Below, piece after piece: positions 39,437 to 57,477 of a stretch of DNA of 64,000 nt. The stretch's first letter is position 1. Each line of letters opens with the position of its first letter. Location of the stretch: assembly GCF_044324785.1 (NCBI RefSeq), contig NZ_CP172127.1; one strand, written 5' to 3'. The translations under genes and the position numbers were made by a program. This stretch comes from Escherichia coli. GTDB taxonomy: Bacteria; Pseudomonadota; Gammaproteobacteria; Enterobacterales; Enterobacteriaceae. Below the pieces are notes generated by a model. That model was not told the DNA's origin. It did no database searches and saw only the letters and a program-made list of their open reading frames with translations.

Positions 39437-39453
39437 TTCATTCTTAACTCTCA

Positions 39454-39487
39454 CGCTTACCCTGAATATTCAGGGTAAGCGGTTTTC
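39454..39487 (+). terminator. Intrinsic terminator of maeB
   Basis: Near-perfect palindrome cgcttaccctgaata/tattcagggtaagcg followed by TTTT. Confidence 0.8.
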
Positions 39488-39728
39488 CTGAAATATATTA
39501 GCAAAGCTTATTACTGAGTTTGCGAATAATAAAAAAAGCAGTATATAAAATATCTCGATATTATTTTATTTATATTCATGCCTCGCATATGAAAGTTTAT
39601 TCATAACAGTAAATATCTCTCCATTCTTAGTGATCTACCTCACCTTTTAAACGCGCTTGCCGAATTTTGTTATTTACTCTGACGAAAAATTGTCACGATA
39701 CACGAAAGTTTTTCACAGGCGGCGACTC

Positions 39729-40064
39729 ATGGATAAAGAACGCATCATTCAGGAATTTGTGCCCGGTAAACAGGTCACACTGGCGCATCTCATCGCGCAT
39801 CCCGGCGAGGAACTGGCGAAGAAAATCGGCGTTCCGGATGCGGGCGCAATCGGCATTATGACGCTAACTCCTGGCGAAACGGCGATGATCGCCGGTGATT
39901 TAGCACTAAAAGCCGCCGATGTGCATATCGGTTTTCTCGACCGTTTTAGCGGCGCGTTGGTGATTTATGGCTCGGTGGGTGCAGTAGAAGAAGCGTTATC
40001 ACAAACCGTCAGCGGTTTAGGGCGTTTATTAAATTATACGCTTTGTGAAATGACCAAAAGTTAA
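39729..40064 (+). CDS. eutS: Ethanolamine-utilisation microcompartment shell protein EutS (BMC domain)
   Basis: 111 aa from ATG 39729 ([15 protein letters not shown]...); the ORF track adds 24 upstream codons. Confidence 0.93.
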
Positions 40065-40076
40065 TACGAGGCATTC

Positions 40077-40556
40077 ATGAAACGAATTGCGTTTGTGGGT
40101 ACCGTCGGGGCAGGAAAAACAACGTTATTTAATGCGTTGCAGGGAGATTATACCCTCGCCAGAAAAACGCAGGCCGTAGAATTTAATGATAAGGGTGATA
40201 TTGATACGCCGGGTGAATATTTTAGCCATCCCCGCTGGTATCACGCCTTAATTACCACGCTACAGGATGTGGACATGCTGATCTATGTCCACGGCGCGAA
40301 TGACCCGGAAAGTCGGTTGCCTGCCGGGTTGCTGGATATTGGCGTCAGCAAACGGCAAATCGCCGTCATCAGTAAAACGGACATGCCAGATGCTGACGTC
40401 GCCGCAACGCGAAAGTTATTGCTTGAGACGGGCTTCGAAGAGCCGATTTTCGAGCTAAACAGCCACGACCCGCAAAGCGTGCAGCAACTGGTGGATTATC
40501 TGGCATCTCTCACCGAACAGGAGGAAGCAGGTGAAAAAACTCATTACAGCGAATGA
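40077..40556 (+). CDS. eutP: Ethanolamine-utilisation protein EutP (P-loop GTPase/acetate-kinase-like)
   Basis: 159 aa; P-loop GTVGAGKT. Confidence 0.93.
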   Translation: MKRIAFVGTVGAGKTTLFNALQGDYTLARKTQAVEFNDKGDIDTPGEYFSHPRWYHALITTLQDVDMLIYVHGANDPESRLPAGLLDIGVSKRQIAVISKTDMPDADVAATRKLLLETGFEEPIFELNSHDPQSVQQLVDYLASLTEQEEAGEKTHYSE

Positions 40557-41232
40557 TATTCGTGAAGCACACGCGCGCGGCGAACAGGCAATGTCCGTGG
40601 TTCTGCGCGCCAGCATTATTACCCCGGAAGCCCGTGAAGTGGCGGATCTGTTGGGTTTTACCATCACTGAATGTGATGAATCGACTGCGGTAACGACGTC
40701 TGTTCCCGCCAGCGTGCCAGCCGATAAAACCGAAAGCCAGCGCATCCGCGAAACCATCATCGCCCAGCTGCCGGAAGGCCAGTTTACCGAAAGCCTGGTC
40801 GCGCAGCTGATGGAAAAAGTGATGAAGGAAAAACAGTCACTGGAGCAGGGTGCAATGCAGCCGAGTTTCAAATCGGTTACCGGCAAAGGCGGCATCAAAG
40901 TTATTGATGGCAGCAGCGTCAAGTTTGGTCGTTTTGACGGCGCACAGCCACACTGCGTCGGATTAACGGATCTGGTCACCGGAGACGACGGCAGCAGCAT
41001 GGCCGCTGGTTTTATGCAGTGGGAGAACGCCTTCTTCCCGTGGACCCTGAACTATGACGAAATCGACATGGTACTGGAAGGGGAACTGCACGTTCGCCAC
41101 GAAGGCGAAACCATGATCGCCAAAGCAGGCGACGTGATGTTTATCCCGAAAGGCTCCAGCATCGAATTTGGTACGACATCCAGCGTGAAATTCCTGTATG
41201 TCGCCTGGCCGGCTAACTGGCAATCCCTATGA
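40531..41232 (+). CDS. eutQ: Ethanolamine-utilisation protein EutQ (cupin domain)
   Basis: 233 aa, GTG start; overlaps eutP by 26 nt. Confidence 0.92.
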   Translation: MKKLITANDIREAHARGEQAMSVVLRASIITPEAREVADLLGFTITECDESTAVTTSVPASVPADKTESQRIRETIIAQLPEGQFTESLVAQLMEKVMKEKQSLEQGAMQPSFKSVTGKGGIKVIDGSSVKFGRFDGAQPHCVGLTDLVTGDDGSSMAAGFMQWENAFFPWTLNYDEIDMVLEGELHVRHEGETMIAKAGDVMFIPKGSSIEFGTTSSVKFLYVAWPANWQSL

Positions 41233-42032
41233 AAGATTTCATCACCGAAGCATGGCTAAGAGCGAACCATACGCTCAGCGAAGGCGCAGAGATCCATCTC
41301 CCTGCGGACAGTCGCCTGACGCCCTCTGCCCGGGAGTTGCTGGAAAGCCGCCATCTGCGCATCAAGTTTATTGACGAGCAGGGCCGCCTGTTTGTTGACG
41401 ATGAACAGCAGCAGCCGCAGCCCGTTCATGGGCTGACCAGTAGCGATGAACATCCGCAGGCGTGCTGCGAACTGTGCCGCCAGCCGGTGGCGAAAAAGCC
41501 GGATACGCTGACTCACCTGTCGGCGGAAAAAATGGTCGCCAAAAGCGATCCGCGCCTGGGTTTTCGCGCTGTTCTCGACAGCACCATTGCGCTGGCAGTG
41601 TGGCTGCAAATTGAACTGGCAGAACCGTGGCAGCCATGGCTGGCGGACATCCGCTCGCGTCTTGGCAACATTATGCGCGCCGATGCGCTGGGGGAACCGC
41701 TGGCCTGCCAGGCGATTGTCGGGCTTTCTGACGAAGATCTGCATCGGCTTTCTCACCAGCCGCTGCGCTATCTTGGTCACGATCATCTGGTGCCGGAAGC
41801 CAGCCACGGGCGCGATGCGGCGTTGCTCAATCTGCTACGCACCAAAGTGCGGGAAACCGAAACCGTGGCGGCGCAGGTCTTTATCACCCGCAGCTTTGAA
41901 GTATTACGCCCGGACATCTTGCAGGCGCTGAACCGCCTTTCCAGCACGGTCTACGTGATGATGATCCTGAGCGTAGCGAAACAACCGCTAACGGTGAAGC
42001 AGATCCAACAACGACTGGGGGAAACGCAATGA
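41229..42032 (+). CDS. eutT: Corrinoid adenosyltransferase EutT
   Basis: 267 aa; ATGA overlap with eutQ. Confidence 0.93.
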
Positions 42033-43045
42033 TTATTGAACGTTGTCGTGAACTGGCGTTGCGAGCGCCCGCCAGAGTGGTATTTCCGGATGCGTTAGAT
42101 CAACGTGTGCTGAAAGCTGCGCAATATTTACATCAACAAGGTCTGGCAACGCCCATTCTGGTCGCCAATCCGTTTGAACTTCGTCAGTTTGCGCTCAGTC
42201 ACGGCGTGGCGATGGACGGGCTACAGGTGATAGATCCGCATGGCAACCTCGCAATGCGGGAAGAATTTGCTCTCCGCTGGCTGGCCCGTGCGGGCGAAAA
42301 AACGCCGCCGGATGCGCTGGAAAAACTCACCGATCCGCTGATGTTCGCTGCCGCAATGGTCAGCGCCGGGACAGCGGATGTTTGCATTGCGGGCAATCTC
42401 TCTTCCACGGCGAATGTGCTGCGTGCCGGATTACGCATTATTGGCTTACAGCCAGGCTGTAAAACGCTCTCCTCCATTTTCCTGATGCTGCCGCAGTACA
42501 GCGGCCCGGCGTTGGGCTTTGCCGATTGCAGCGTGGTGCCACAGCCGACGGCGGCGCAGCTGGCGGATATCGCGCTTGCCAGCGCCGAAACCTGGCGCGC
42601 CATCACCGGAGAAGAGCCGCGCGTGGCGATGTTGTCGTTTTCCAGTAACGGCAGCGCCCGTCACCCCTGCGTTGCCAACGTCCAGCAGGCGACAGAAATC
42701 GTCCGTGAGCGCGCGCCGCAGTTGGTAGTCGATGGCGAGTTGCAGTTTGACGCCGCCTTCGTGCCGGAAGTGGCGGCGCAAAAAGCGCCTGCCAGCCCAC
42801 TACAAGGCAAAGCCAATGTGATGGTTTTTCCGTCGCTGGAAGCCGGAAATATTGGCTACAAAATCGCACAACGACTCGGCGGATATCGTGCCGTCGGGCC
42901 ATTGATACAAGGACTTGCCGCGCCGATGCACGATCTCTCTCGTGGTTGTAGCGTGCAGGAAATTATCGAGCTGGCGCTGGTGGCAGCTGTGCCGCGTCAG
43001 ACAGAAGTAAACCGTGAAAGCAGTTTACAAACACTGGTTGAATGA
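42029..43045 (+). CDS. eutD: Phosphotransacetylase EutD (EutI)
   Basis: 338 aa PTA-family ORF; ATGA overlap with eutT. Confidence 0.94.
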
Positions 43046-43083
43046 ACGGTCCCGTTCTGGACCCTGATAAAGAGGAAAGCACA

Positions 43084-43377
43084 ATGGAAGCATTAGGAAT
43101 GATCGAAACCCGGGGCCTGGTTGCACTGATTGAGGCTTCTGACGCGATGGTGAAAGCTGCGCGCGTCAAGCTGGTTGGTGTTAAGCAGATTGGCGGCGGC
43201 CTGTGTACTGCCATGGTTCGTGGTGATGTTGCAGCCTGTAAAGCCGCGACCGACGCAGGTGCTGCAGCGGCACAGCGTATCGGCGAGCTGGTATCTGTAC
43301 ACGTTATCCCGCGTCCGCACGGCGACCTGGAAGAAGTCTTCCCGATCGGCCTCAAAGGCGATAGCAGCAACCTGTAA
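43084..43377 (+). CDS. eutM: Major microcompartment shell protein EutM (BMC-H)
   Basis: 97 aa from ATG 43084 ([26 protein letters not shown]...) with GAGGAAA RBS. Confidence 0.95.
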
Positions 43378-43386
43378 TCACCCTGT

Positions 43387-43408
43387 GTGACGTCGATTCG
43401 GGCGTCAC
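43387..43408 (+). other. Hairpin (gtgacg-N10-cgtcac) followed by a T-rich tract in the eutM-eutN spacer
   Basis: 6-bp stem then ctctctcctttttcatttt; a possible weak attenuator within the operon. Confidence 0.3.
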
Positions 43409-43483
43409 GCTCTCTCCTTTTTCATTTTACCTTCCGCGGAGGGTAGGGGGAGCTTTTACCTGAAATACGCCACGGAGGCGGGT

Positions 43484-43771
43484 ATGAAACTGGCAGTCGT
43501 CACTGGACAAATTGTTTGTACCGTACGCCATCACGGACTGGCGCATGACAAATTGCTGATGGTGGAAATGATTGATCCACAAGGTAATCCTGACGGGCAA
43601 TGCGCCGTCGCCATCGACAATATTGGCGCGGGAACCGGGGAGTGGGTGTTGCTGGTGAGTGGCAGTTCCGCCCGCCAGGCGCATAAAAGCGAAACGTCAC
43701 CGGTCGATCTGTGCGTGATTGGCATCGTCGATGAGGTGGTGTCTGGCGGTCAGGTAATTTTCCACAAATAA
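43484..43771 (+). CDS. eutN: Microcompartment vertex protein EutN (BMC-P family)
   Basis: 95 aa matching E. coli EutN. Confidence 0.94.
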   Translation: MKLAVVTGQIVCTVRHHGLAHDKLLMVEMIDPQGNPDGQCAVAIDNIGAGTGEWVLLVSGSSARQAHKSETSPVDLCVIGIVDEVVSGGQVIFHK

Positions 43772-43782
43772 GGCAGAACATC

Positions 43783-45186
43783 ATGAATCAACAGGATATT
43801 GAACAGGTGGTGAAAGCGGTACTGCTGAAAATGCAAAGCAGTGACACGCCGCCCGCCGCCGTTCATGAGATGGGCGTTTTCGCGTCCCTGGATGACGCCG
43901 TTGCGGCAGCCAAAATTGCCCAGCAAGGGTTAAAAAGCGTGGCAATGCGCCAGTTAGCCATTGCTGCCATTCGTGAGGCAGGCGAAAAACACGCCAGAGA
44001 TTTAGCGGAACTTGCCGTCAGTGAAACCGGCATGGGCCGCGTCGAAGATAAATTTGCCAAAAACGTCGCTCAGGCGCGCGGCACACCAGGCGTTGAGTGC
44101 CTCTCTCCGCAAGTGCTGACAGGCGACAACGGCCTGACTTTAATTGAAAACGCGCCCTGGGGCGTGGTGGCTTCGGTGACGCCTTCCACTAACCCGGCGG
44201 CAACCGTAATTAACAACGCCATCAGCCTGATTGCCGCGGGCAACAGCGTCATTTTTGCCCCGCATCCGGCGGCGAAAAAAGTCTCCCAGCGGGCGATTAC
44301 GCTGCTCAACCAGGCGATTGTTGCCGCAGGCGGGCCGGAAAACTTACTGGTTACTGTGGCCAATCCGGATATCGAAACCGCACAACGCTTGTTCAAGTTT
44401 CCGGGTATTGGCCTTTTGGTGGTGACCGGCGGCGAAGCGGTAGTAGAAGCGGCGCGTAAACACACCAATAAACGTCTGATTGCCGCAGGTGCCGGTAACC
44501 CGCCGGTAGTGGTGGATGAAACCGCCGACCTCGCCCGTGCCGCTCAGTCCATCGTTAAAGGTGCTTCTTTCGATAACAACATCATTTGTGCCGACGAAAA
44601 GGTACTGATTGTTGTTGATAGCGTAGCCGATGAACTGATGCGTCTGATGGAAGGCCAGCACGCGGTGAAACTGACCGCAGAGCAGGCGCAGCAGCTACAA
44701 CCGGTGTTGCTGAAAAATATCGACGAGCGCGGAAAAGGCACCGTCAGCCGTGACTGGGTTGGTCGCGATGCGGCGAAAATCGCGGCGGCAATCGGCCTTA
44801 AAGTTCCGGAACAAACGCGACTGCTGTTTGTGGAAACCACTGCAGAACATCCGTTTGCCGTGACTGAACTGATGATGCCGGTGCTGCCCGTCGTGCGCGT
44901 CGCCAACGTGGCGGATGCCATTGCGCTGGCGGTGAAACTGGAAGGCGGTTGCCACCACACGGCGGCAATGCACTCGCGCAATATCGAGAACATGAACCAG
45001 ATGGCGAATGCCATTGATACCAGCATTTTCGTTAAGAACGGACCGTGCATTGCCGGGCTGGGGCTGGGCGGGGAAGGCTGGACCACCATGACCATCACCA
45101 CGCCAACCGGTGAAGGGGTAACCAGCGCGCGGACGTTTGTCCGTCTGCGTCGCTGTGTATTAGTCGATGCGTTTCGCATTGTTTAA
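43783..45186 (+). CDS. eutE: Acetaldehyde dehydrogenase (CoA-acetylating) EutE
   Basis: 467 aa aldehyde-dehydrogenase-family ORF. Confidence 0.95.
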   Translation: MNQQDIEQVVKAVLLKMQSSDTPPAAVHEMGVFASLDDAVAAAKIAQQGLKSVAMRQLAIAAIREAGEKHARDLAELAVSETGMGRVEDKFAKNVAQARGTPGVECLSPQVLTGDNGLTLIENAPWGVVASVTPSTNPAATVINNAISLIAAGNSVIFAPHPAAKKVSQRAITLLNQAIVAAGGPENLLVTVANPDIETAQRLFKFPGIGLLVVTGGEAVVEAARKHTNKRLIAAGAGNPPVVVDETADLARAAQSIVKGASFDNNIICADEKVLIVVDSVADELMRLMEGQHAVKLTAEQAQQLQPVLLKNIDERGKGTVSRDWVGRDAAKIAAAIGLKVPEQTRLLFVETTAEHPFAVTELMMPVLPVVRVANVADAIALAVKLEGGCHHTAAMHSRNIENMNQMANAIDTSIFVKNGPCIAGLGLGGEGWTTMTITTPTGEGVTSARTFVRLRRCVLVDAFRIV

Positions 45187-45196
45187 GGAGTAACCG

Positions 45197-46033
45197 ATGG
45201 CGCACGACGAACAATGGCTCACCCCTCGACTGCAAACGGCGGCAACGCTGTGTAACCAGACGCCCGCCGCGACGGAATCTCCGCTGTGGCTGGGGGTGGA
45301 TCTGGGCACCTGCGATGTGGTGTCGATGGTTGTCGACTGCGACGGTCAGCCGGTGGCGGTATGTCTCGACTGGGCCGATGTGGTCCGCGACGGCATCGTC
45401 TGGGATTTCTTCGGTGCGGTCACCATTGTTCGTCGCCATCTCGACACCCTCGAGCAGCAATTCGGTCGCCGTTTTAGCCATGCGGCGACCTCTTTTCCTC
45501 CAGGTACGGATCCGCGTATTTCCATCAACGTGCTGGAGTCTGCCGGGCTGGAAGTGAGCCATGTGCTGGATGAGCCAACCGCAGTCGCGGATCTGCTGCA
45601 ACTGGACAACGCCGGTGTAGTGGATATCGGCGGCGGCACCACCGGCATTGCCATCGTGAAAAAGGGCAAGGTGACTTACTCGGCAGATGAAGCCACCGGC
45701 GGACATCATATCTCTCTGACTCTCGCCGGAAATCGCCGTATTTCGCTGGAAGAGGCGGAGCAGTACAAGCGCGGTCACGGTGAAGAGATTTGGCCTGCGG
45801 TGAAACCGGTGTACGAAAAAATGGCGGACATTGTCGCCCGGCATATTGAAGGGCAGGGCATTACTGATTTATGGCTGGCGGGCGGCTCTTGTATGCAACC
45901 GGGCGTGGCGGAACTGTTTCGCAAACAATTCCCGGCGTTACAGGTGCATTTACCGCAGCACAGTTTGTTTATGACCCCGCTGGCGATCGCCAGTAGCGGG
46001 CGAGAGAAAGCGGAGGGGCTATATGCAAAATGA
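45197..46033 (+). CDS. eutJ: Ethanolamine-utilisation chaperone-like ATPase EutJ (actin/Hsp70 fold)
   Basis: 278 aa; DLGTCD and VDIGGGTTG sugar-kinase/Hsp70 motifs. Confidence 0.94.
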   Translation: MAHDEQWLTPRLQTAATLCNQTPAATESPLWLGVDLGTCDVVSMVVDCDGQPVAVCLDWADVVRDGIVWDFFGAVTIVRRHLDTLEQQFGRRFSHAATSFPPGTDPRISINVLESAGLEVSHVLDEPTAVADLLQLDNAGVVDIGGGTTGIAIVKKGKVTYSADEATGGHHISLTLAGNRRISLEEAEQYKRGHGEEIWPAVKPVYEKMADIVARHIEGQGITDLWLAGGSCMQPGVAELFRKQFPALQVHLPQHSLFMTPLAIASSGREKAEGLYAK

Positions 46034-47210
46034 ATTGCAGACCGCGCTCTTTCAGGCGTTCGATACCCTGAATCTGCAACGGGTAAAAACATTTAGCGTT
46101 CCACCGGTGACGCTTTGCGGTCCGGGCGCGATGAGCAGTTGCGGGCAGCAAGCGCAAACGCGTGGGCTGAAACATCTGTTCGTGATGGCAGACAGCTTTT
46201 TGCATCAGGCGGGGATGACCGCCGGGCTGACGCGTAGCCTGGCCGTTAAAGGTATCGCCATGACGCTCTGGCCATGTCCGGTGGGCGAACCGTGCATCAC
46301 CGACGTGTGTGCAGCCGTGGCGCAGTTGCGTGAATCAGGTTGTGACGGGGTGATCGCGTTTGGCGGCGGCTCGGTGCTGGATGCGGCGAAAGCCGTGGCG
46401 TTGCTGGTGACAAACCCGGATAGCACGCTGGCAGAAATGTCAGAAACCAGCGTTCTGCAACCGCGCCTGCCGTTGATTGCCATTCCAACGACCGCCGGAA
46501 CCGGCTCTGAAACCACCAACGTAACGGTGATTATCGACGCGGTGAGCGAGCGCAAGCAGGTGTTAGCCCATGCCTCGCTGATGCCGGATGTGGCGATTCT
46601 TGACGCCGCATTGACCGAAGGTGTGCCGTCGCATGTCACGGCGATGACCGGTATCGACGCGTTAACTCATGCCATTGAAGCGTACAGCGCGCTGAACGCC
46701 ACACCGTTTACCGACAGTCTGGCGATTGGCGCTATTGCGATGATTGGCAAATCGCTGCCGAAAGCGGTGGGCTACGGTCACGACCTTGCCGCGCGCGAGA
46801 GCATGTTGCTGGCTTCATGTATGGCGGGAATGGCGTTTTCCAGTGCGGGGCTTGGGTTATGCCACGCGATGGCGCATCAGCCGGGGGCGGCGCTGCATAT
46901 TCCGCACGGTCTGGCGAACGCCATGCTACTGCCAACGGTGATGGAGTTTAACCGGATGGTCTGTCGTGATCGGTTTAGTCAGATTGGTCGGGCGCTGACA
47001 AACAAGAAAACTGACGAGCGCGAGGTAATTAGCGTGATAAGCGAGCTGATTGCGGAAGTTGGGATCAACAAGCGGCTGGCTGATGTGGGCGCAACCACCG
47101 GACATTACCGCGCATGGGCGCAGGCCGCGATGGAAGATATTTGTCTGCGCAGCAACCCGCGTACCGCCAGCCTGGAGCAGATTATTGGTCTGTATGCTGC
47201 GGCGCAATAA
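46023..47210 (+). CDS. eutG: Iron-containing alcohol dehydrogenase EutG
   Basis: 395 aa Fe-ADH-family ORF; overlaps eutJ by 11 nt. Confidence 0.94.
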   Translation: MQNELQTALFQAFDTLNLQRVKTFSVPPVTLCGPGAMSSCGQQAQTRGLKHLFVMADSFLHQAGMTAGLTRSLAVKGIAMTLWPCPVGEPCITDVCAAVAQLRESGCDGVIAFGGGSVLDAAKAVALLVTNPDSTLAEMSETSVLQPRLPLIAIPTTAGTGSETTNVTVIIDAVSERKQVLAHASLMPDVAILDAALTEGVPSHVTAMTGIDALTHAIEAYSALNATPFTDSLAIGAIAMIGKSLPKAVGYGHDLAARESMLLASCMAGMAFSSAGLGLCHAMAHQPGAALHIPHGLANAMLLPTVMEFNRMVCRDRFSQIGRALTNKKTDEREVISVISELIAEVGINKRLADVGATTGHYRAWAQAAMEDICLRSNPRTASLEQIIGLYAAAQ

Positions 47211-47217
47211 AAGTGTA

Positions 47218-47335
47218 CGGACAGTCCCCTCGCCCCTTTGGGGAGAGGGTTAGGGTGAGGGGAACAGAGTCGCGCCGGTGCAAACAATTACCCTCACCCC
47301 GGCCCCTCGGCTTCCAGAGTGAGGGAAAAACCCAC
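47218..47335. repeat. GC-rich intergenic repeat, copy 2, plus downstream inverted partial copies, between eutG and eutH
   Basis: 47218-47266 cggacagtcccctcgcccctttggggagagggttagggtgaggggaaca; 47291-47300 ccctcacccc is the reverse complement of the gggtgagggg core, and gagtgaggg recurs at ~47318. Confidence 0.75.
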
Positions 47336-47379
47336 TTTCAGCATTGGCAATAAATAACAACTAACAGGGAGTAAAGGTG

Positions 47380-48606
47380 ATGGGAATTAACGAAATCATC
47401 ATGTACATCATGATGTTCTTTATGCTGATAGCTGCCGTAGACAGGATCCTGTCGCAGTTCGGTGGTTCTGCTCGTTTCCTCGGTAAGTTCGGTAAAAGTA
47501 TCGAAGGATCAGGCGGTCAGTTCGAAGAAGGCTTTATGGCAATGGGCGCACTGGGCCTGGCGATGGTTGGTATGACCGCGCTGGCACCGGTACTGGCCCA
47601 CGTACTCGGGCCGGTGATTATCCCGGTTTACGAAATGCTCGGCGCAAACCCGTCAATGTTCGCCGGAACACTGCTGGCGTGCGATATGGGCGGCTTCTTC
47701 CTCGCCAAAGAGCTGGCGGGCGGCGACGTAGCAGCGTGGCTATACTCTGGGTTAATTCTCGGGTCGATGATGGGGCCAACGATTGTGTTTTCCATTCCGG
47801 TGGCGCTCGGCATTATCGAACCTTCTGACCGTCGTTATCTGGCGCTCGGCGTGCTGGCGGGCATTGTGACCATTCCAATTGGTTGTATCGCCGGTGGCCT
47901 GGTGGCTATGTACTCCGGTGTACAGATCAACGGCCAGCCGGTGGAATTCACCTTTGCGCTTATCCTGATGAACATGATCCCGGTACTTATCGTCGCGGTA
48001 CTGGTGGCGCTGGGGCTGAAATTCATCCCGGAAAAAATGATCAACGGCTTCCAGATCTTCGCCAAATTCCTCGTTGCATTGATCACCCTCGGTCTTGCTG
48101 CCGCGGTAGTGAAATTCCTGCTTGGCTGGGAACTGATCCCCGGTCTGGATCCTATCTTTATGGCCCCTGGCGATAAACCCGGTGAAGTGATGCGCGCCAT
48201 TGAAGTTATCGGTTCTATCTCCTGCGTTCTGTTAGGGGCGTACCCGATGGTACTGCTGCTGACTCGCTGGTTTGAAAAACCGCTGATGAGCGTCGGTAAG
48301 GTGCTGAATATGAACAATATCGCGGCAGCTGGCATGGTGGCAACGCTTGCCAACAACATCCCAATGTTTGGCATGATGAAGCTGATGGATACCCGCGGCA
48401 AAGTCATCAACTGCGCCTTCGCCGTTTCCGCTGCTTTCGCCCTGGGTGACCACTTAGGCTTCGCCGCTGCCAACATGAACGCCATGATTTTCCCGATGAT
48501 TGTCGGCAAATTGATCGGCGGCGTAACGGCGATTGGCGTGGCGATGATGCTGGTGCCAAAAGAAGACGCGACCGCGGCTAAAACCGAAGCGGAGGCACAA
48601 TCGTGA
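47380..48606 (+). CDS. eutH: Ethanolamine permease/facilitator EutH
   Basis: 408 aa polytopic membrane protein from ATG 47380 (GGGAG RBS). Confidence 0.94.
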   Translation: MGINEIIMYIMMFFMLIAAVDRILSQFGGSARFLGKFGKSIEGSGGQFEEGFMAMGALGLAMVGMTALAPVLAHVLGPVIIPVYEMLGANPSMFAGTLLACDMGGFFLAKELAGGDVAAWLYSGLILGSMMGPTIVFSIPVALGIIEPSDRRYLALGVLAGIVTIPIGCIAGGLVAMYSGVQINGQPVEFTFALILMNMIPVLIVAVLVALGLKFIPEKMINGFQIFAKFLVALITLGLAAAVVKFLLGWELIPGLDPIFMAPGDKPGEVMRAIEVIGSISCVLLGAYPMVLLLTRWFEKPLMSVGKVLNMNNIAAAGMVATLANNIPMFGMMKLMDTRGKVINCAFAVSAAFALGDHLGFAAANMNAMIFPMIVGKLIGGVTAIGVAMMLVPKEDATAAKTEAEAQS

Positions 48607-50006
48607 ACACTCGCCAGCTACTGAGCGTCGGTATCGATATCGGCACCACCACCACCCAGGTGATCTTCTCCCACCTGGAACTGGTTAACCGTGCGGCGGT
48701 GTCGCAGGTGCCGCGCTACGAATTCATCAAACGCGAAATTAGCTGGCAAAGCCCGGTGTTCTTTACCCCTGTCGATAAACAGGGTGGTTTAAAAGAAGCG
48801 GAACTGAAATCGCTGATTTTAGAGCAATATCAGGCTGCGGGCATTGCGCCGGAAAGCGTTGATTCTGGTGCCATCATCATCACCGGTGAAAGCGCGAAAA
48901 CCCGCAACGCTCGCCCGGCGGTGATGACGCTCTCCCAGTCGCTGGGCGATTTTGTCGTCGCCAGCGCCGGGCCGCATCTCGAATCCGTGATCGCCGGTCA
49001 CGGTGCCGGGGCGCAAACCCTTTCTGAACAACGGCTGTGTCGGGTACTGAATATCGACATCGGCGGTGGCACCGCGAACTACGCCCTGTTCGATGCCGGA
49101 AAAATCAGCGGCACTGCCTGCCTCAACGTTGGCGGTCGCCTGCTGGAAACCGACAGCCAGGGGCGCGTGGTTTACGCTCATATACCGGGGCAGATGATTG
49201 TGGATGAGTGCTTCGGTGCAGGCACTGACGCCCGTTCGCTGACCGGCACGCAGTTGGTGCAGGTTACCCGGCGGATGGCAGAACTGATTGTCGAAGTGAT
49301 TGACGGAACGCTCTCGCCGCTCGCGCAGGCATTGATGCAAACCGGTTTGTTGCCCGCAGGTGTTACGCCCGAAATCATTACGCTTTCTGGCGGCGTGGGC
49401 GAATGTTATCGCCACCAGCCCGCCGACCCGTTCTGTTTTGCCGATATCGGCCCGCTTCTGGCAACGGCGCTGCATGACCATCAGCGCCTGCGTGAGATGA
49501 ACGTGCAGTTTCCAGCGCAAACCGTGCGCGCCACGGTGATTGGCGCGGGCGCACATACCCTTTCGCTCTCTGGCAGCACAATCTGGCTGGAGGGCGTACA
49601 ACTGCCGCTGCGCAATTTGCCGGTGGCGATCCCAATTGATGAAACGGATCTGGTGAGTGCCTGGCAACAGGCGCTGATTCAGCTGGATCTTTGCCCCAAA
49701 ACTGACGCGTACGTGCTGGCGCTTCCCGCCTCGCTGCCTGTGCGTTACGCCGCGGTACTGACGGTCATCAACGCGCTGGTCGATTTCGTCGCGCGTTTTC
49801 CGAATCCGCATCCCCTGCTGGTGGTGGCCGGGCAGGACTTTGGTAAAGCTCTGGGCATGTTGTTGCGCCCACAGCTACAACAACTCCCGTTGGCAGTCAT
49901 TGACGAAGTGATTGTCCGCGCGGGGGACTATATCGACATTGGTACGCCTCTTTTTGGCGGATCGGTTGTGCCGGTGACGGTGAAATCACTCGCATTTCCT
50001 TCCTGA
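48603..50006 (+). CDS. eutA: Ethanolamine ammonia-lyase reactivase EutA
   Basis: 467 aa, GTG start overlapping the eutH stop (GTGA). Confidence 0.94.
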   Translation: MNTRQLLSVGIDIGTTTTQVIFSHLELVNRAAVSQVPRYEFIKREISWQSPVFFTPVDKQGGLKEAELKSLILEQYQAAGIAPESVDSGAIIITGESAKTRNARPAVMTLSQSLGDFVVASAGPHLESVIAGHGAGAQTLSEQRLCRVLNIDIGGGTANYALFDAGKISGTACLNVGGRLLETDSQGRVVYAHIPGQMIVDECFGAGTDARSLTGTQLVQVTRRMAELIVEVIDGTLSPLAQALMQTGLLPAGVTPEIITLSGGVGECYRHQPADPFCFADIGPLLATALHDHQRLREMNVQFPAQTVRATVIGAGAHTLSLSGSTIWLEGVQLPLRNLPVAIPIDETDLVSAWQQALIQLDLCPKTDAYVLALPASLPVRYAAVLTVINALVDFVARFPNPHPLLVVAGQDFGKALGMLLRPQLQQLPLAVIDEVIVRAGDYIDIGTPLFGGSVVPVTVKSLAFPS

Positions 50007-50017
50007 GGGAACGACTT

Positions 50018-51379
50018 ATGAAACTAAAGACCACATTGTTCGGCAATGTATATCAGTTTAAGGATGTAAAAGAGGTGCTGGCTAAAGCCAACGAACTGCG
50101 TTCGGGGGATGTGCTGGCGGGCGTTGCAGCGGCAAGCTCACAAGAGCGCGTGGCGGCAAAGCAGGTGTTGTCGGAAATGACCGTAGCGGACATCCGCAAT
50201 AATCCGGTGATTGCCTATGAAGATGACTGCGTGACGCGGCTGATTCAGGACGACGTTAACGAAACGGCCTACAACCAGATTAAAAACTGGAGCATCAGCG
50301 AACTGCGTGAGTATGTGCTGAGCGATGAAACCAGCGTGGACGACATTGCCTTTACCCGCAAAGGGCTGACCTCGGAAGTGGTCGCGGCGGTAGCGAAGAT
50401 TTGCTCCAACGCGGACCTGATCTACGGCGCGAAGAAAATGCCGGTAATCAAAAAGGCCAATACCACCATCGGTATTCCGGGCACCTTTAGCGCCCGTTTG
50501 CAGCCAAATGACACCCGTGACGACGTGCAAAGTATCGCCGCGCAAATCTACGAAGGGCTTTCCTTCGGGGTGGGCGATGCGGTGATCGGCGTTAACCCGG
50601 TGACTGACGATGTGGAAAACTTAAGCCGCGTGTTGGACACCATTTACGGCGTGATCGACAAATTCAACATTCCGACCCAGGGCTGCGTGCTGGCGCACGT
50701 CACCACCCAGATTGAAGCGATCCGTCGTGGCGCACCAGGCGGGCTGATTTTCCAGAGTATCTGCGGCAGCGAAAAAGGGCTGAAAGAATTTGGCGTGGAG
50801 CTGGCGATGCTCGATGAAGCACGCGCAGTGGGCGCGGAGTTCAACCGTATCGCCGGGGAAAACTGCCTCTACTTCGAAACCGGACAAGGCTCTGCGCTGT
50901 CCGCTGGCGCTAACTTCGGCGCAGACCAGGTGACGATGGAAGCACGTAACTATGGGCTGGCGCGTCATTACGATCCGTTTATCGTCAACACCGTGGTCGG
51001 CTTTATTGGGCCGGAGTATCTCTACAACGACCGCCAGATTATCCGTGCGGGCTTAGAAGATCACTTTATGGGTAAGCTGAGCGGCATCTCTATGGGCTGT
51101 GACTGCTGCTACACCAACCACGCTGACGCTGACCAGAACCTCAACGAAAACCTCATGATCCTGCTCGCCACCGCAGGCTGCAACTACATCATGGGGATGC
51201 CGCTGGGTGATGACATCATGCTCAACTACCAGACCACCGCCTTCCACGATACTGCCACTGTGCGTCAGTTACTCAACCTGCGCCCGTCACCGGAGTTTGA
51301 ACGCTGGCTGGAAAGCATGGGCATTATGGCAAACGGTCGCCTGACCAAACGGGCGGGCGATCCGTCACTGTTCTTCTGA
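50018..51379 (+). CDS. eutB: Ethanolamine ammonia-lyase large subunit EutB
   Basis: 453 aa; begins 11 bp after eutA with no inserted DNA. Confidence 0.96.
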   Translation: MKLKTTLFGNVYQFKDVKEVLAKANELRSGDVLAGVAAASSQERVAAKQVLSEMTVADIRNNPVIAYEDDCVTRLIQDDVNETAYNQIKNWSISELREYVLSDETSVDDIAFTRKGLTSEVVAAVAKICSNADLIYGAKKMPVIKKANTTIGIPGTFSARLQPNDTRDDVQSIAAQIYEGLSFGVGDAVIGVNPVTDDVENLSRVLDTIYGVIDKFNIPTQGCVLAHVTTQIEAIRRGAPGGLIFQSICGSEKGLKEFGVELAMLDEARAVGAEFNRIAGENCLYFETGQGSALSAGANFGADQVTMEARNYGLARHYDPFIVNTVVGFIGPEYLYNDRQIIRAGLEDHFMGKLSGISMGCDCCYTNHADADQNLNENLMILLATAGCNYIMGMPLGDDIMLNYQTTAFHDTATVRQLLNLRPSPEFERWLESMGIMANGRLTKRAGDPSLFF

Positions 51380-51399
51380 TGACGCGGAGATAACACATC

Positions 51400-52284
51400 A
51401 TGGATCAAAAACAGATTGAAGAAATTGTACGCAGCGTGATGGCGTCAATGGGACAAGCGGCCCCCGCGCCGTCAGAAGCAAAGTGCGCCACCACCTATGC
51501 GGCACCGGTGACCTCGGAAAGCTGCGCGCTGGATTTAGGCTCTGCGGAAGCAAAAGCGTGGATTGGCGTTGAAAACCCGCATCGCGCAGACGTATTAACA
51601 GAACTGCGTCGCAGCACCGTGGCCCGCGTTTGTACCGGTCGTGCCGGTCCGCGTCCGCGTACCCAGGCGTTGCTGCGTTTCCTGGCCGATCACTCTCGTT
51701 CGAAAGATACCGTACTGAAAGAAGTGCCGGAAGAGTGGGTGAAAGCGCAGGGCTTGCTGGAAGTCCGCTCTGAAATTAGCGACAAAAATCTCTACCTGAC
51801 TCGTCCGGATATGGGCCGCCGCCTGTGTGCAGAAGCTGTTGAAGCGCTGAAAGCACAGTGTGTTGCTAATCCGGACGTGCAGGTCGTTATTTCTGATGGC
51901 CTGTCAACTGATGCGATCACCGTGAACTACGAAGAGATCCTGCCGCCGCTGATGGCGGGCCTGAAACAGGCCGGGCTGAAAGTCGGTACACCATTCTTTG
52001 TTCGTTATGGTCGCGTGAAGATTGAAGATCAGATCGGTGAGATCCTCGGCGCGAAAGTGGTGATCCTGCTGGTGGGGGAACGCCCGGGATTAGGGCAGTC
52101 AGAAAGCCTCTCCTGCTACGCCGTTTACTCGCCGCGTATGGCAACCACCGTTGAGGCCGATCGCACCTGCATCTCTAACATTCACCAGGGCGGCACGCCG
52201 CCGGTTGAAGCCGCAGCCGTCATTGTGGATTTGGCGAAACGTATGCTGGAGCAGAAAGCATCCGGCATCAACATGACCCGATAA
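51400..52284 (+). CDS. eutC: Ethanolamine ammonia-lyase small subunit EutC
   Basis: 294 aa matching E. coli EutC. Confidence 0.95.
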
Positions 52285-52293
52285 GGAGGCATC

Positions 52294-52953
52294 ATGCCAG
52301 CTTTAGATTTGATTCGACCGTCGGTAACCGCCATGCGGGTGATTGCCTCCGTTAACGCCGAATTTGCGCGTGAACTGAAATTGCCGCCGCATATTCGTAG
52401 CCTCGGGCTGATTTCTGCTGATTCCGATGACGTCACCTACATTGCGGCTGACGAAGCGACCAAGCAGGCGATGGTGGAAGTGGTGTATGGACGCTCGCTG
52501 TATGCGGGAGCCGCACACGGCCCGTCACCGACTGCCGGTGAAGTGCTGATTATGCTTGGTGGGCCAAACCCGGCGGAAGTGCGTGCTGGTCTGGATGCGA
52601 TGGTTGCGCATATTGAAAATGGCGCGGCTTTCCAGTGGGCTAATGACGCAGAAAACACAGCCTTCCTGGCACATGTAGTTTCGCGTACCGGTTCTTATCT
52701 CTCATCAACCGCCGGGATCACGCTTGGCGATCCGATGGCGTATCTGGTGGCACCGCCGCTGGAAGCGACCTATGGCATTGATGCAGCCCTGAAATCTGCC
52801 GACGTGCAACTGGTGACCTACGTACCGCCGCCGTCTGAAACCAACTACTCGGCAGCATTTTTAACCGGTAGCCAGGCCGCGTGTAAAGCAGCCTGTAACG
52901 CCTTTACCGATGCAGTGCTGGAAATCGCGCGTAATCCAATCCAGCGTGCGTAA
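52294..52953 (+). CDS. eutL: Microcompartment shell protein EutL (tandem BMC domains)
   Basis: 219 aa matching E. coli EutL. Confidence 0.95.
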
Positions 52954-52965
52954 CGGAGGTTGCCG

Positions 52966-53466
52966 ATGATCAATGCACTGGGATTGCTGGAAGTGGACGG
53001 CATGGTCGCCGCGATAGATGCTGCGGATGCCATGCTCAAAGCAGCTAACGTTCGTCTGCTCAGTCACGAAGTGCTTGACCCTGGTCGCCTAACGCTGGTG
53101 GTGGAAGGCGATCTGGCGGCGTGTCGTGCGGCGCTGGACGCAGGTTGTGCTGCCGCGATGCGTACCGGGCGTGTCATCAGCCGTAAGGAGATCGGTCGGC
53201 CAGACGATGACACCCAGTGGCTGGTTACTGGCTTTAACCGCCAGCCGAAGCAACCCGTAAAGGAACCCGACGCGCCAGTTATCGTCGCGGAATCTGCTGA
53301 CGAGTTGTTGGCGCTGTTAACATCAGTACGTCAGGGAATGACGGCAGGAGAAGTGGCTGCCCACTTTGGCTGGCCGCTGGAAAAAGCCAGAAATGCGCTC
53401 GAACAGCTCTTTTCTGCCGGGACGTTACGTAAACGCAGTAGTCGTTATCGTCTCAAGCCCCATTAA
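52966..53466 (+). CDS. eutK: Microcompartment shell protein EutK (BMC domain plus C-terminal helix-turn-helix-like tail)
   Basis: 166 aa from ATG 52966 (ACGGAGG RBS); the ORF track starts 2 codons earlier at TTG. Confidence 0.93.
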   Translation: MINALGLLEVDGMVAAIDAADAMLKAANVRLLSHEVLDPGRLTLVVEGDLAACRAALDAGCAAAMRTGRVISRKEIGRPDDDTQWLVTGFNRQPKQPVKEPDAPVIVAESADELLALLTSVRQGMTAGEVAAHFGWPLEKARNALEQLFSAGTLRKRSSRYRLKPH

Positions 53467-53478
53467 CCTGTCGGAGGT

Positions 53479-53502
53479 GCCGGGTGTCCTACAACACCCG
53501 GC
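53479..53502 (+). other. 9-bp-stem hairpin (gccgggtgt-cctaca-acacccggc) between eutK and eutR
   Basis: Perfect inverted repeat 12 bp after the eutK stop and 10 bp before the eutR ATG; no U-tract. Confidence 0.4.
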
Positions 53503-53511
53503 ATTAACATC

Positions 53512-54564
53512 ATGAAAAAGACCCGTACAGCCAATTTGCACCATCTTTATCATGAACCCTTACCCGAAAACCTGAAGCTCACGCCGAAGGTCGAAGTGGA
53601 TAATGTTCATCAACGACAGACAACGGATGTCTATGAACATGCTTTGACAATTACCGCCTGGCAGCAGATTTACGATCAGCTGCATCCGGGCAAGTTTCAT
53701 GGTGAATTTACGGAAATTCTACTCGATGATATTCAGGTTTTTCGTGAATACACCGGTCTGGCGCTGCGTCAGTCGTGCCTGGTCTGGCCGAACTCGTTCT
53801 GGTTTGGCATTCCGGCGACGCGCGGTGAGCAGGGATTTATCGGTTCGCAATGTCTGGGAAGTGCAGAAATAGCCACGCGGCCTGGCGGCACTGAGTTTGA
53901 ATTGAGTACGCCGGACGATTACACCATCCTTGGCGTGGTGCTTTCTGAAGATGTCATTACCCGGCAGGCTAACTTTTTGCATAACCCGGAGCGGGTGTTG
54001 CATATGTTGCGTCACCAGTCGGCGCTGGAAGTGAAAGAGCAGCATAAAGCCGCGCTGTGGGGCTTTGTCCAACAGGCGCTGGCGACGTTTTGCGAGAACC
54101 CGGAAAATCTCCATCAGCCTGCAGTGCGAAAAGTGTTGGGGGATAATTTGCTCATGGCGATGGGGGCGATGCTGGAAGAAGCGCAACCAATGGTGACGGC
54201 GGAAAGCATCAGTCATCAGAGTTACCGTAGATTACTTTCCCGCGCCCGTGAATATGTGCTGGAAAATATGTCTGAGCCGGTGACGGTGCTGGACTTGTGT
54301 AATCAACTGCATGTCAGTCGCCGCACGCTACAAAACGCGTTTCACGCTATTTTAGGCATTGGCCCGAACGCGTGGCTGAAACGCATTCGCCTGAACGCCG
54401 TACGCCGCGAACTGATAAGCCCGTGGTCGCAAAGCACAACGGTAAAAGACGCCGCCATGCAGTGGGGATTCTGGCATCTGGGGCAATTCGCCACGGATTA
54501 CCAGCAGCTGTTTGCCGAGAAGCCGTCACTGACGCTGCATCAGCGGATGCGGGAATGGGGGTGA
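53512..54564 (+). CDS. eutR: AraC-family transcriptional activator EutR
   Basis: 350 aa with a C-terminal AraC-type HTH; last gene of the eut cluster. Confidence 0.94.
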
Positions 54565-54569
54565 GGGAG

Positions 54570-55472
<903 letters not shown>

Positions 55473-56342
55473 TTACCGCTTTCTCGAGTGTGCTTTCTGG
55501 TTGTCAAACCAGTGAAAATAACTGATCACGCCTTCGGCAATCGCTGTGGCGATTTTCTGGCGAAATGCTGCCGTGCCTAACAGCCGCTCTTCTTCCGGGT
55601 TGGTGATAAACGAGGTTTCCACCAGCACCGAAGGAACCGACGGCGATTTCAACACCACAAACGCGGCTTGTTCGGTGTTGCGGCTGTGCAGTTTATGCAC
55701 CGGCTTAATCTTTTTCAGAATATGCGAGCCGAGCGTCAGGCTGTTTTTAATAGTATCGGTTTGCACCAGATCAAACAGCACTTGCTGCAATAGGTGATCC
55801 TTGTCAGTCGCCTTTTTACCGGCAACTTCATCGGCGCGGTTTTCGCGTTCAGACAGGTATTTCGCCATTGCGCTACTTGCCCCACGGTTAGAGAGGGCAA
55901 ATACCGAAGCACCGGCAGCTTTCGGGTTGGTAAAGCCGTCGGCATGAATTGACATAAACAGATCTGCGCCATGTTTATGGGCGATTTCAACGCGATCGTA
56001 AAGTGGGATAAACGTATCGCCAGAACGCGTTAAACGCGCATCAATCCCATGATTACGCAAAATGGAACGGACGTTTTTAGCAATCGCCAGCACCACATGT
56101 TTTTCTTTCGAACCGTTGCGCCCGATCGCTCCGGTATCAATCCCGCCGTGGCCTGGATCGAGAACAACGACACGTTTGCCGCCAGATTTTTTGGCTTTCG
56201 GCTTGCTGTGTCCGTTGCTGGTTTTTAAAGGTTCGTCTTTGGCGATGGCTTGCGACATTCCTGACAACGTCAGCGCTGCAAGTCCTGCTTTCAGCACCTG
56301 GCGGCGCGAAGTGAGTGTTTTTAGTGGTTTAAAAGTGCTCAT
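55473..56342 (-). CDS. amiA: N-acetylmuramoyl-L-alanine amidase AmiA
   Basis: 289 aa; twin-arginine signal (TSRRQVLKAGLAAL); amidase_3 domain; 3 bp upstream of hemF. Confidence 0.95.
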   Translation of the reverse strand: MSTFKPLKTLTSRRQVLKAGLAALTLSGMSQAIAKDEPLKTSNGHSKPKAKKSGGKRVVVLDPGHGGIDTGAIGRNGSKEKHVVLAIAKNVRSILRNHGIDARLTRSGDTFIPLYDRVEIAHKHGADLFMSIHADGFTNPKAAGASVFALSNRGASSAMAKYLSERENRADEVAGKKATDKDHLLQQVLFDLVQTDTIKNSLTLGSHILKKIKPVHKLHSRNTEQAAFVVLKSPSVPSVLVETSFITNPEEERLLGTAAFRQKIATAIAEGVISYFHWFDNQKAHSRKR

Positions 56343-56555
56343 ACGGCCTGAGTTGTAATAATAAAGTTCCAGATGTTATATCGTATCGCGTAATCCGTTA
56401 CGACCGTTTGCTGTTGAGAATTGTTTTACTTTTCATTTCAATAGTTGACAACTCCCCATTATGCCACTTTTTCAACCGATTTTCGTCAGATATTGGCTAA
56501 TTCGACCGTTCACGCCATAATCAGCCTTTTAACCCGCAAAAAGGTAACGAATACC

Positions 56556-57417: not shown

Positions 57418-57477
57418 CGGCACTTTTTGGTGAATTTGCACTCCAAGCAACGTTATTGAATAACCAAAGGAAGTGAC

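What the first reader, a model, noticed from the sequence alone, without database searches (positions are those of the whole stretch)
39729..54564. Uninterrupted 17-gene eut microcompartment operon; prophage-free eutA-eutB junction
The gene order is eutSPQTDMNEJGHABCLKR with every ORF intact. eutA ends at 50006 and eutB starts at 50018, with no inserted DNA. From memory, K-12 MG1655 carries the CPZ-55 prophage between these two genes. So the source is a non-K-12 strain with an ancestral-type operon, presumably competent for ethanolamine catabolism.
Basis: partly seen in the sequence, partly recalled or inferred. Interest (0 to 1): 0.4.

Follow-up and report, generated by a model that had tools for sequence, protein, structure and literature searches.

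The report
Intact E. coli ethanolamine operon
This is the normal, uninterrupted 17-gene ethanolamine-utilisation operon found in about nine of ten E. coli genomes; the prophage that splits it in the K-12 reference strain is the known exception, so the finding is correct but ordinary.

Summary
Window 39729-54564 holds eutSPQTDMNEJGHABCLKR. All 17 ORFs are intact and match MG1655 in length, except EutC (294 vs 295 aa). The eutA stop is at 50004-50006 and the eutB ATG at 50018, with an 11-nt spacer.

MG1655 carries the 6,790-bp cryptic prophage CPZ-55 exactly here, flanked by an 8-bp duplication, CTTCCTGA. The window has one copy of it (49999-50006), so the site is unoccupied.

The empty site is the common and ancestral state:
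- 4,964 of 5,426 complete E. coli genomes have a contiguous junction.
- 35 loci from other Enterobacteriaceae species plus a Salmonella enterica fragment show the same junction sequence (one has a single base change).

All of this is published. Two caveats apply. Some K-12 genomes also have a scarless empty site, so it is the 3-4% sequence divergence that shows the source is not K-12. Eut+ competence is inferred, not tested.

One side observation is worth a follow-up. The junction sits in a ~198-nt block (49920-50117), centred on the eutB start codon. The block is ~99.5% identical across enterobacterial genera, synonymous sites included, while the operon averages 83%. Its function is unknown.

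The parts
39437..39728 (+). maeB-eutS intergenic region; expected site of the main ethanolamine/B12-inducible eut promoter (PI)
   Evidence: Sequence read. The promoter assignment rests on literature (PMC7617246) and was not tested here.
39729..40064 (+). eutS, microcompartment shell protein (111 aa)
   Evidence: 111/111 aa identical to K-12. PF00936 BMC.
40077..40556 (+). eutP (159 aa)
   Evidence: 153/159 aa identical to K-12. PF10662 PduV-EutP.
40531..41232 (+). eutQ (233 aa, GTG start as in K-12)
   Evidence: 228/233. PF06249 EutQ.
41229..42032 (+). eutT, corrinoid adenosyltransferase (267 aa)
   Evidence: 264/267. PF01923.
42029..43045 (+). eutD, phosphotransacetylase (338 aa)
   Evidence: 335/338. 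PF01515.
43084..43377 (+). eutM, major shell protein (97 aa)
   Evidence: 97/97. PF00936.
43484..43771 (+). eutN, vertex protein (95 aa)
   Evidence: 95/95. PF03319.
43783..45186 (+). eutE, acetaldehyde dehydrogenase (467 aa)
   Evidence: 462/467. PF00171.
45197..46033 (+). eutJ, chaperone-like protein (278 aa)
   Evidence: 277/278. FtsA/MreB-like families.
46023..47210 (+). eutG, alcohol dehydrogenase (395 aa); the 3' third is a divergent allele
   Evidence: 373/395 aa and 93.4% nt identity; 17 of the 22 differences lie in residues 316-388. PF00465.
47211..47379 (.). eutG-eutH spacer holding G+C-rich palindromic repeats (resembling BoxC repeats, from memory); its length varies between strains
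   Evidence: sequence; 169 nt here, against 216 (K-12), 116 and 316 in other strains.
47380..48606 (+). eutH, ethanolamine permease (408 aa)
   Evidence: 404/408. PF04346.
48603..50006 (+). eutA, ethanolamine ammonia-lyase reactivase (467 aa, GTG start)
   Evidence: 456/467. PF06277.
49999..50006 (.). CTTCCTGA, the unoccupied attachment core for CPZ-55/IntZ-type islands (single copy; includes the eutA stop codon)
   Evidence: the same 8 bp is duplicated at both ends of CPZ-55 in MG1655; the same holds for a different 10.3-kb intZ island in strain MFDS1016424. PMC6379469 reports the 8-bp duplication.
50007..50017 (+). 11-nt eutA-eutB spacer GGGAACGACTT; with the eutA stop codon it provides the eutB ribosome-binding region (GAGGGA, 50005-50010)
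   Evidence: The spacer is identical in all 35 loci from other Enterobacteriaceae species.
49920..50117 (+). nucleotide-level ultraconserved block centred on the eutB ATG (-98..+100)
   Evidence: Non-Escherichia species match the window at 0.97-0.998 per 60-nt window, against an operon mean of 0.834. Synonymous codons are identical in 58/62 cases, against 61-69% outside the block.
49995..50011 (+). predicted small mRNA hairpin pairing the last eutA codons with the eutB Shine-Dalgarno region
   Evidence: Present in both the MFE and centroid structures. It is a prediction only and has no covariation support.
50018..51379 (+). eutB, ethanolamine ammonia-lyase large subunit (453 aa)
   Evidence: 453/453. 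PF06751.
51400..52284 (+). eutC, lyase small subunit (294 aa; one codon shorter than K-12)
   Evidence: N33 deleted, C34Y. The exact protein is seen on about 300 contigs and named E. coli.
52294..52953 (+). eutL, shell protein (219 aa)
   Evidence: 214/219. PF00936.
52966..53466 (+). eutK, shell protein (166 aa)
   Evidence: 165/166. PF00936 + PF16365.
53512..54564 (+). eutR, AraC-family activator (350 aa)
   Evidence: 346/350. PF00165/PF12833.

Best explanation
The region is the standard enterobacterial 17-gene ethanolamine-utilisation (eut) microcompartment operon of a non-K-12 E. coli strain, in its uninterrupted form. The eutA-eutB junction is an unoccupied attachment site for IntZ-type integrative elements. 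In K-12 MG1655 the cryptic prophage CPZ-55 sits there. From established knowledge, EutR with ethanolamine and adenosylcobalamin activates one long transcript from the promoter upstream of eutS. EutBC converts ethanolamine to acetaldehyde and ammonia inside a shell built from EutS, M, N, L and K. EutA reactivates the lyase, EutE, EutD and EutG process the acetaldehyde, EutT adenosylates the corrinoid and EutH imports the substrate. With eutA and eutB contiguous, the lyase, shell and regulator genes downstream stay on that transcript. The strain is therefore most likely able to use ethanolamine, at least as a nitrogen source, when B12 is supplied. Shown here: gene content, gene integrity, the empty site and its ancestral status. 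Inferred: expression and growth phenotype.
For: All 17 genes are intact and colinear with K-12 and have the expected Pfam families. The window has one copy of CTTCCTGA and an 11-nt spacer. MG1655 has 6,790 bp of CPZ-55 between two copies of that 8-mer. The junction is contiguous in 4,964 of 5,426 complete E. coli genomes. Full-length CPZ-55 is present in only 213, mostly laboratory strains, and about 200 more carry only intZ-like sequence. The junction is identical in 35 loci from species of Citrobacter, Klebsiella, Salmonella, Yokenella, Pluralibacter, Intestinirhabdus, Pseudocitrobacter and Escherichia, apart from one base in E. whittamii, and in a Salmonella enterica fragment. Published experiments show that BW25113 carrying the prophage cannot use ethanolamine, and that scarless removal of the prophage restores use as a nitrogen source (PMC11334477). 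In BW25113 eutB is not induced and no microcompartments form (PMC7617246). The window sequence is 100% identical over 21 kb to two independent GenBank assemblies, so it is not an assembly artefact.
Against: No phenotype or expression data exist for this strain. Several proteins differ from K-12: EutG at 22 residues, EutA at 11, and EutC by a one-codon deletion. The effect of these changes is untested, although the exact alleles occur on roughly 270-300 contigs each. An uninterrupted junction does not guarantee function. The closest complete genome (strain N3) has an internal stop in eutT and a frameshift in eutR. A near-identical relative of the source has an IS66-family insertion in eutD. The genes for B12 uptake and salvage lie outside the window.
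Confidence: 0.9

Rival explanations
1. The operon is structurally intact but not functional in this strain, because of missense changes, a regulatory defect or a lack of usable cobalamin. On this view the intact ORFs overstate competence.
For: There are 22 substitutions in EutG and 11 in EutA, and a codon deletion in EutC. Point pseudogenes occur in otherwise uninterrupted operons of other strains: eutT and eutR in N3 and eutC in MFDS1016424.
Against: No ORF here has a stop or a frameshift. EutB, EutM, EutN and EutS are 100% identical to K-12. The variant alleles are common in natural E. coli, which fits purifying selection. Published surveys report the eut operon conserved in all 47 sequenced UPEC isolates (PMC6652756) and ethanolamine use as a nitrogen source widespread among 35 human gut commensal E. 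coli (cited in PMC7617246).
Confidence: 0.1
2. The empty junction is not a never-occupied ancestral site. It is the scar-free product of a past excision of an IntZ-type island from this lineage.
For: Excision by a tyrosine integrase restores attB exactly. One K-12 record has such a scarless empty site with otherwise MG1655-identical flanks. About 8% of E. coli genomes carry something at this site, so visits are not rare.
Against: The two histories leave the same sequence, so nothing here favours a past occupation. The empty state is the large majority in E. coli and was universal in the other genera sampled. Never occupied is therefore the simpler reading.
Confidence: 0.07
3. The contiguous junction is an assembly artefact, for example a collapsed or mis-joined contig that lost an inserted element.
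For: None found.
Against: Two independent GenBank assemblies match the window at 100% over 21 kb spanning the junction. Two further assemblies match at 99.96-99.99%. Thousands of genomes share the same arrangement.
Confidence: 0.01

Closest known systems
eut operon of Salmonella enterica LT2 and E. coli Nissle 1917 / UPEC (EUT1-type locus)
   Same: The same 17 genes in the same order, contiguous eutA-eutB, EutR at the 3' end, and maeB upstream with hemF downstream (PMC7617246 Fig. 1C legend; PMC11334477).
   Different: Only allelic differences: a divergent eutG 3' end, the 294-aa EutC, and the length of the eutG-eutH spacer.
eut locus of E. coli K-12 MG1655 / BW25113 with cryptic prophage CPZ-55
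   Same: Orthologous genes at 93-99% nt identity. The flanking sequence is identical for at least 66 nt upstream and 94 nt downstream of the insertion point.
   Different: K-12 has 6,790 bp (intZ, yffL-yffS), transcribed opposite to eut, inserted after the eutA stop codon with CTTCCTGA duplicated. The window has none of this. K-12 strains carrying the prophage are Eut- (PMC11334477, PMC7617246).
K-12 derivatives with a restored junction (BW25113 eut+, W3110 eut+, record NZ_CP047127.1)
   Same: A scarless, contiguous eutA-eutB junction whose sequence is identical to the window's.
   Different: Their flanks are K-12 alleles (100% to MG1655 on the eutA side). The window is only 96-97% identical to MG1655.
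Other IntZ-type islands at the same site (strain MFDS1016424; UPEC U71 in PMC6652756)
   Same: They use the same 8-bp core that is unoccupied in the window.
   Different: They carry about 10 kb of different cargo next to an intZ gene 82-89% identical to that of CPZ-55. The window has no such element.

Membership tests
Enterobacterial 17-gene eut (EUT1) microcompartment operon | Signature enzyme ethanolamine ammonia-lyase EutB + EutC with reactivase EutA | tested here: met
   EutB 453/453, EutC 293/295 and EutA 456/467 aa identical to K-12. Pfam PF06751, PF05985 and PF06277.
Enterobacterial 17-gene eut (EUT1) microcompartment operon | Shell genes: four BMC-domain proteins (EutS, M, L, K) and one EutN/CcmL vertex protein | tested here: met
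   PF00936 on four products and PF03319 on one. All are intact.
Enterobacterial 17-gene eut (EUT1) microcompartment operon | Gene order eutSPQTDMNEJGHABCLKR on one strand, with the AraC-type regulator EutR last | tested here: met
   the order is the same as annotated in MG1655 and strain N3.
Enterobacterial 17-gene eut (EUT1) microcompartment operon | Chromosomal context maeB ... eut ... hemF-amiA | tested here: met
   maeB at 37157-39436, hemF at 54570-55472 and amiA at 55473-56342.
Enterobacterial 17-gene eut (EUT1) microcompartment operon | Induction by ethanolamine plus B12 and growth on ethanolamine | not testable with these tools
   Needs culture and expression assays.
CPZ-55 / IntZ-island-occupied eut locus (K-12 type) | Integrase-bearing DNA between the eutA stop and the eutB start | tested here: not met
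   Only 11 nt separate the two genes. CPZ-55 did not align to the window when MG1655 locus L001 was compared with it (L001 8711-15481 unaligned).
CPZ-55 / IntZ-island-occupied eut locus (K-12 type) | Duplicated 8-bp core CTTCCTGA flanking the insert | tested here: not met
   A single copy lies at 49999-50006.

The most novel reading that the evidence does not exclude
The element is held almost invariant at the nucleotide level, synonymous sites included, across Escherichia, Salmonella, Klebsiella, Citrobacter, Yokenella and other genera. It could be an undescribed cis-acting RNA or DNA element that controls synthesis of the lyase EutBC. One possibility is an extended translation-initiation or translational-coupling structure built around the hairpin that pairs the end of eutA with the eutB ribosome-binding site. 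IntZ-type elements would then target it for the same reason other integrases target tRNA genes: it is the same in many hosts. CPZ-55 would split such an element in K-12.
Probability: 0.3. Interest if true: 0.5.

Novelty: already known. Interest (0 to 1): 0.13.

Why it matters
The finding itself adds little. It shows that the window comes from an ordinary, non-laboratory E. coli with the usual ethanolamine operon. It is also a reminder that the K-12 reference is atypical at this locus, which matters for metabolic models and for choosing control strains (noted in PMC7617246). The side observation could matter more. A 198-nt stretch more conserved than its surroundings at silent sites, sitting on the start of the pathway's key enzyme and doubling as a prophage attachment site, is a concrete and cheaply testable candidate for post-transcriptional control of the Eut system.

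Tried and rejected
1. Known RNA families. Rfam gave nothing on the whole window at gathering thresholds. At E<=10 on 49700-50350 the only match was a chance snoRNA hit outside the block. ARAGORN found no tRNA-like gene.
2. A strongly folded RNA. The MFE z-score was +0.11 on the sense strand and -1.64 on the antisense strand, so neither is significant.
3. An internal sigma-70 promoter. There were no consensus matches in 49700-50350.
4. Homogenisation of the block by mobile elements. CPZ-55 and a second intZ island duplicate only 8 bp and carry no copy of the block. In the phage and plasmid collections the block appears only on mislabelled chromosomal pieces. Site +65 shows all four bases among species, which argues for long in-place evolution rather than recent transfer.
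5. Overlapping coding. The eutB frame is open for 38 codons upstream of the ATG, but the open stretch is only 3-11 codons in Serratia, P. gergoviae and Pseudomonas. A 49-aa antisense ORF with a TTG start covers only part of the block, and in the eutB half its third codon positions coincide with eutB's third positions (my frame arithmetic on the coordinates). Neither explains the whole block.
6. Naming the source strain. No complete RefSeq E. coli genome exceeds 99.0% identity. The exact proteins are named only 'Escherichia coli'. Shigella flexneri/boydii are unlikely, because their EutB homologues (98% identical over 89% of the query) are annotated as 512-540-aa fusions with an alcohol-dehydrogenase domain.
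7. The genome-contig scan is not exhaustive. The E. coli type strain has the search pattern but was not returned, so absence of a species means nothing.
8. Kofoid et al. 1999 (PMC94038) is not held in the library.
Full report
**Observation.**
The ORF list for 38000-56500 and a gene-by-gene comparison with E. coli K-12 MG1655 (loci L001 and L003) show 17 intact genes on the + strand. Their order is eutS, P, Q, T, D, M, N, E, J, G, H, A, B, C, L, K, R, spanning 39729 to 54564. Start and stop codons match K-12, and no gene has an internal stop. Sixteen products have the K-12 length. EutC is one residue shorter (N33 deleted, C34Y). Protein identity to K-12 runs from 94% (EutG, 373/395) to 100% (EutS, EutM, EutN, EutB). 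Nucleotide identity runs from 93.4% to 99.3%. A public locus 100% identical to window 36023-57210 carries the Pfam families expected for each gene. eutA ends with TGA at 50004-50006 and eutB begins at 50018. The 11 nt between them read GGGAACGACTT.

**The K-12 comparison.**
The MG1655 record annotates 'cryptic prophage CPZ-55' at 2558691-2565480 (6,790 bp). It holds intZ and yffL to yffS on the strand opposite to eut, and lies between eutB (b2441) and eutA (b2451). Reading both ends shows CTTCCTGA, which includes the eutA stop codon, once at each end of the prophage. The window has a single copy at 49999-50006. On either side of the insertion point the window is identical to K-12 for all the sequence inspected. 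This is published knowledge:
- the 8-bp duplication and the position just after the eutA stop (PMC6379469);
- the insertion as a hallmark of K-12-lineage strains, and a different prophage at the same site in a uropathogenic isolate (PMC6652756);
- loss of eutB induction, microcompartments and growth on ethanolamine in BW25113 (PMC7617246);
- restoration of ethanolamine use after scarless removal of the prophage (PMC11334477).

**How common the empty site is, and whether it is ancestral.**
A 2-kb query centred on the junction matches 5,423 of 5,426 complete E. coli genomes. In 4,964 of them (91.5%) it matches as one contiguous piece. Full-length CPZ-55 is present in 213 genomes, mostly laboratory strains. 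About 200 further genomes hold only an intZ-like gene at 82-89% identity. One of these, strain MFDS1016424, has a 10.3-kb island with different cargo at the same site and the same 8-bp duplication.

A pattern search of species-representative genomes returned 35 loci. They come from Citrobacter, Klebsiella, Salmonella arizonae, Yokenella, Pluralibacter, Pseudocitrobacter, Intestinirhabdus and four non-coli Escherichia lineages. In 34 of them the analysis found an EutA-like ORF ending 11 nt before the eutB ATG. In C. koseri a frame disruption hid that ORF. The 30 nt before the ATG are identical to the window in 34 of the 35, C. koseri included, and differ by one base in E. whittamii. A Salmonella enterica Kentucky fragment shows the same junction. 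The empty site is thus both the majority state and the ancestral state, and the K-12 state is derived.

**Source of the window.**
The operon differs from MG1655 at 3-4% of positions, so the source is not K-12. The empty junction alone would not prove this. The K-12 record NZ_CP047127.1 has a scarless empty junction with flanks 100% identical to MG1655 on the eutA side. PMC11334477 also lists its W3110 stock as eut+.

No complete RefSeq E. coli genome matches the window at more than 98.3% (eut), 99.0% (1-24000) or 98.5% (54500-64000). Even so, two GenBank assemblies (GCA_958308385.1 and GCA_043676975.1) are 100% identical over 21 kb. The exact EutA, EutG, EutR and EutC proteins occur on roughly 270-300 contigs each, all named Escherichia coli.

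**Function.**
From established knowledge of the system (summarised in PMC7617246 and PMC11334477), EutR together with ethanolamine and adenosylcobalamin activates the promoter upstream of eutS. EutBC is the lyase and EutA reactivates it. EutE, EutD and EutG process acetaldehyde, EutT adenosylates the corrinoid, EutH imports the substrate, and EutS, M, N, L and K form the shell. All parts are present and intact, and the lyase, shell and regulator genes downstream of eutA remain on the same transcription unit. The strain is therefore most likely Eut+ when given B12.

This last step is inference. Point pseudogenes occur in otherwise uninterrupted operons: eutT and eutR in strain N3 and eutC in MFDS1016424. 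A near-identical relative of the source carries an IS66-family element in eutD.

**A side observation at the junction.**
The outgroup loci were then aligned to the window. The stretch from about -98 to +100 relative to the eutB ATG (49920-50117) is almost invariant, and conservation drops sharply on both sides. Over the whole operon, 60-nt windows average 0.834 identity to non-Escherichia species (sd 0.056). Across the block they reach 0.97-0.998, and no other stretch of comparable length does. Among codons that encode the same amino acid, 58 of 62 in the block are the same codon in Salmonella, Klebsiella pneumoniae and Citrobacter youngae (50-59 of 60-62 across the eight species compared). 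Outside the block the figure is 60-69% (binomial P from about 1e-4 to 1e-9 per pair, not independent between pairs).

A few sites inside the block vary freely. Site +65 shows all four bases and +32 shows A or T. That argues for long evolution in place under selection, not for recent transfer. The IntZ islands carry no copy of the block, and it is not found on genuine phages or plasmids. It is not conserved in the eutA-eutB junctions of Serratia fonticola, Pluralibacter gergoviae, Photorhabdus or Pseudomonas citronellolis. Those junctions belong to differently organised eut loci, and only the roughly 30 nt around the eutA stop stay similar.

Tests for a known explanation were negative. There was no Rfam family, tRNA-like gene, significant folding z-score or promoter consensus. 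Overlapping reading frames do not explain the whole block.

Two things point to translation. First, the block is centred on the start codon. Second, the first 50 nt of several other eut genes are also unusually conserved: eutH 0.999, eutM 0.972, eutC 0.968 and eutE 0.967. This fits the known reduction of synonymous change at the start of enterobacterial genes (Eyre-Walker and Bulmer 1993; recalled from memory, with the title confirmed as cited). The MFE and centroid folds also contain a small hairpin (49995-50011) that pairs the last eutA codons with the eutB ribosome-binding region. Such a hairpin would couple eutB translation to eutA termination.

My best reading is an unusually long constraint on the translation-initiation region of the pathway's key enzyme. 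IntZ-type integrases would exploit it as a host-invariant target. The function is not established. The sample was chosen with a pattern inside the block, so it is somewhat biased, and the scan was not exhaustive. A keyword search of the held library returned no paper describing this block.

**Verdict.**
The finding is accurate, and its interpretation is supported with two caveats: the logic of 'non-K-12', and the untested phenotype. It describes the normal, already published state of the locus, so interest is low. The conserved block is recorded as a lead.

Noticed in passing
window 49920-50117: A ~198-nt block centred on the eutB start codon is ~99.5% identical across enterobacterial genera, silent codon positions included, against 83% for the operon. 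The CPZ-55 attachment core and a predicted hairpin that sequesters the eutB ribosome-binding site lie inside it. Function is unknown, and a keyword search of the held paper library found no description.
   Followed up: partly
window 59049-59227 (breakpoint near 59141): pbp4b (yfeW) is missing between yfeX and murP. Relative to strain MFDS1016424 there is a 1,182-bp deletion that removes most of the gene. Twelve of the 15 best-matching complete genomes listed keep pbp4b, and at least one (K_EC180) lacks the extra DNA as the window does.
   Followed up: partly
window 46968-47379: The last third of eutG is a divergent allele: 17 of the 22 amino-acid differences from K-12 fall in residues 316-388. 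The eutG-eutH spacer holds G+C-rich palindromic repeats and varies in length between strains (116, 169, 216 or 316 nt). This looks like a local recombination mosaic.
   Followed up: partly
window 51400-52284: EutC is 294 aa rather than 295 (N33 deleted, C34Y), in the region after the N-terminal encapsulation peptide. The exact allele is seen on about 300 contigs labelled E. coli.
   Followed up: partly
whole window: No complete RefSeq E. coli genome in the collection is more than 98.3-99.0% identical to the window. GenBank draft assemblies, however, are 100% identical over 21 kb. The source lineage seems to be absent from the complete-genome set.
   Followed up: partly
L007 / L013 (GCA_053151395.1), equivalent to window ~42858-42866: A genome otherwise 99.99-100% identical to the window in the parts of this region that align has an IS66-family element (three transposase ORFs) inserted in eutD. 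The operon is therefore being inactivated within the same lineage.
   Followed up: no
L002 (strain N3) and L015 (strain MFDS1016424): The closest complete genome, N3, has an internal stop in eutT and a frameshift in eutR despite an uninterrupted junction. MFDS1016424 has an internal stop in eutC besides its island. Point decay of eut is not rare.
   Followed up: no
window 51321-51399: The end of eutB and the eutB-eutC spacer form a second conservation peak (0.977 for window 51321-51380). An antisense promoter in the eutB-eutC spacer was validated experimentally in E. coli (PMC2912661).
   Followed up: no
P0038, P0039 (Shigella proteins): Shigella flexneri and boydii EutB homologues are annotated as 512-540-aa fusions carrying an alcohol-dehydrogenase (EutG-like) domain. 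This implies a deletion that joins eutG to eutB in those lineages.
   Followed up: no
L014 (NZ_CP047127.1): A genome labelled E. coli K-12 (4.58 Mb) lacks CPZ-55 with a scarless junction and flanks identical to MG1655. This indicates excision or engineered removal.
   Followed up: partly
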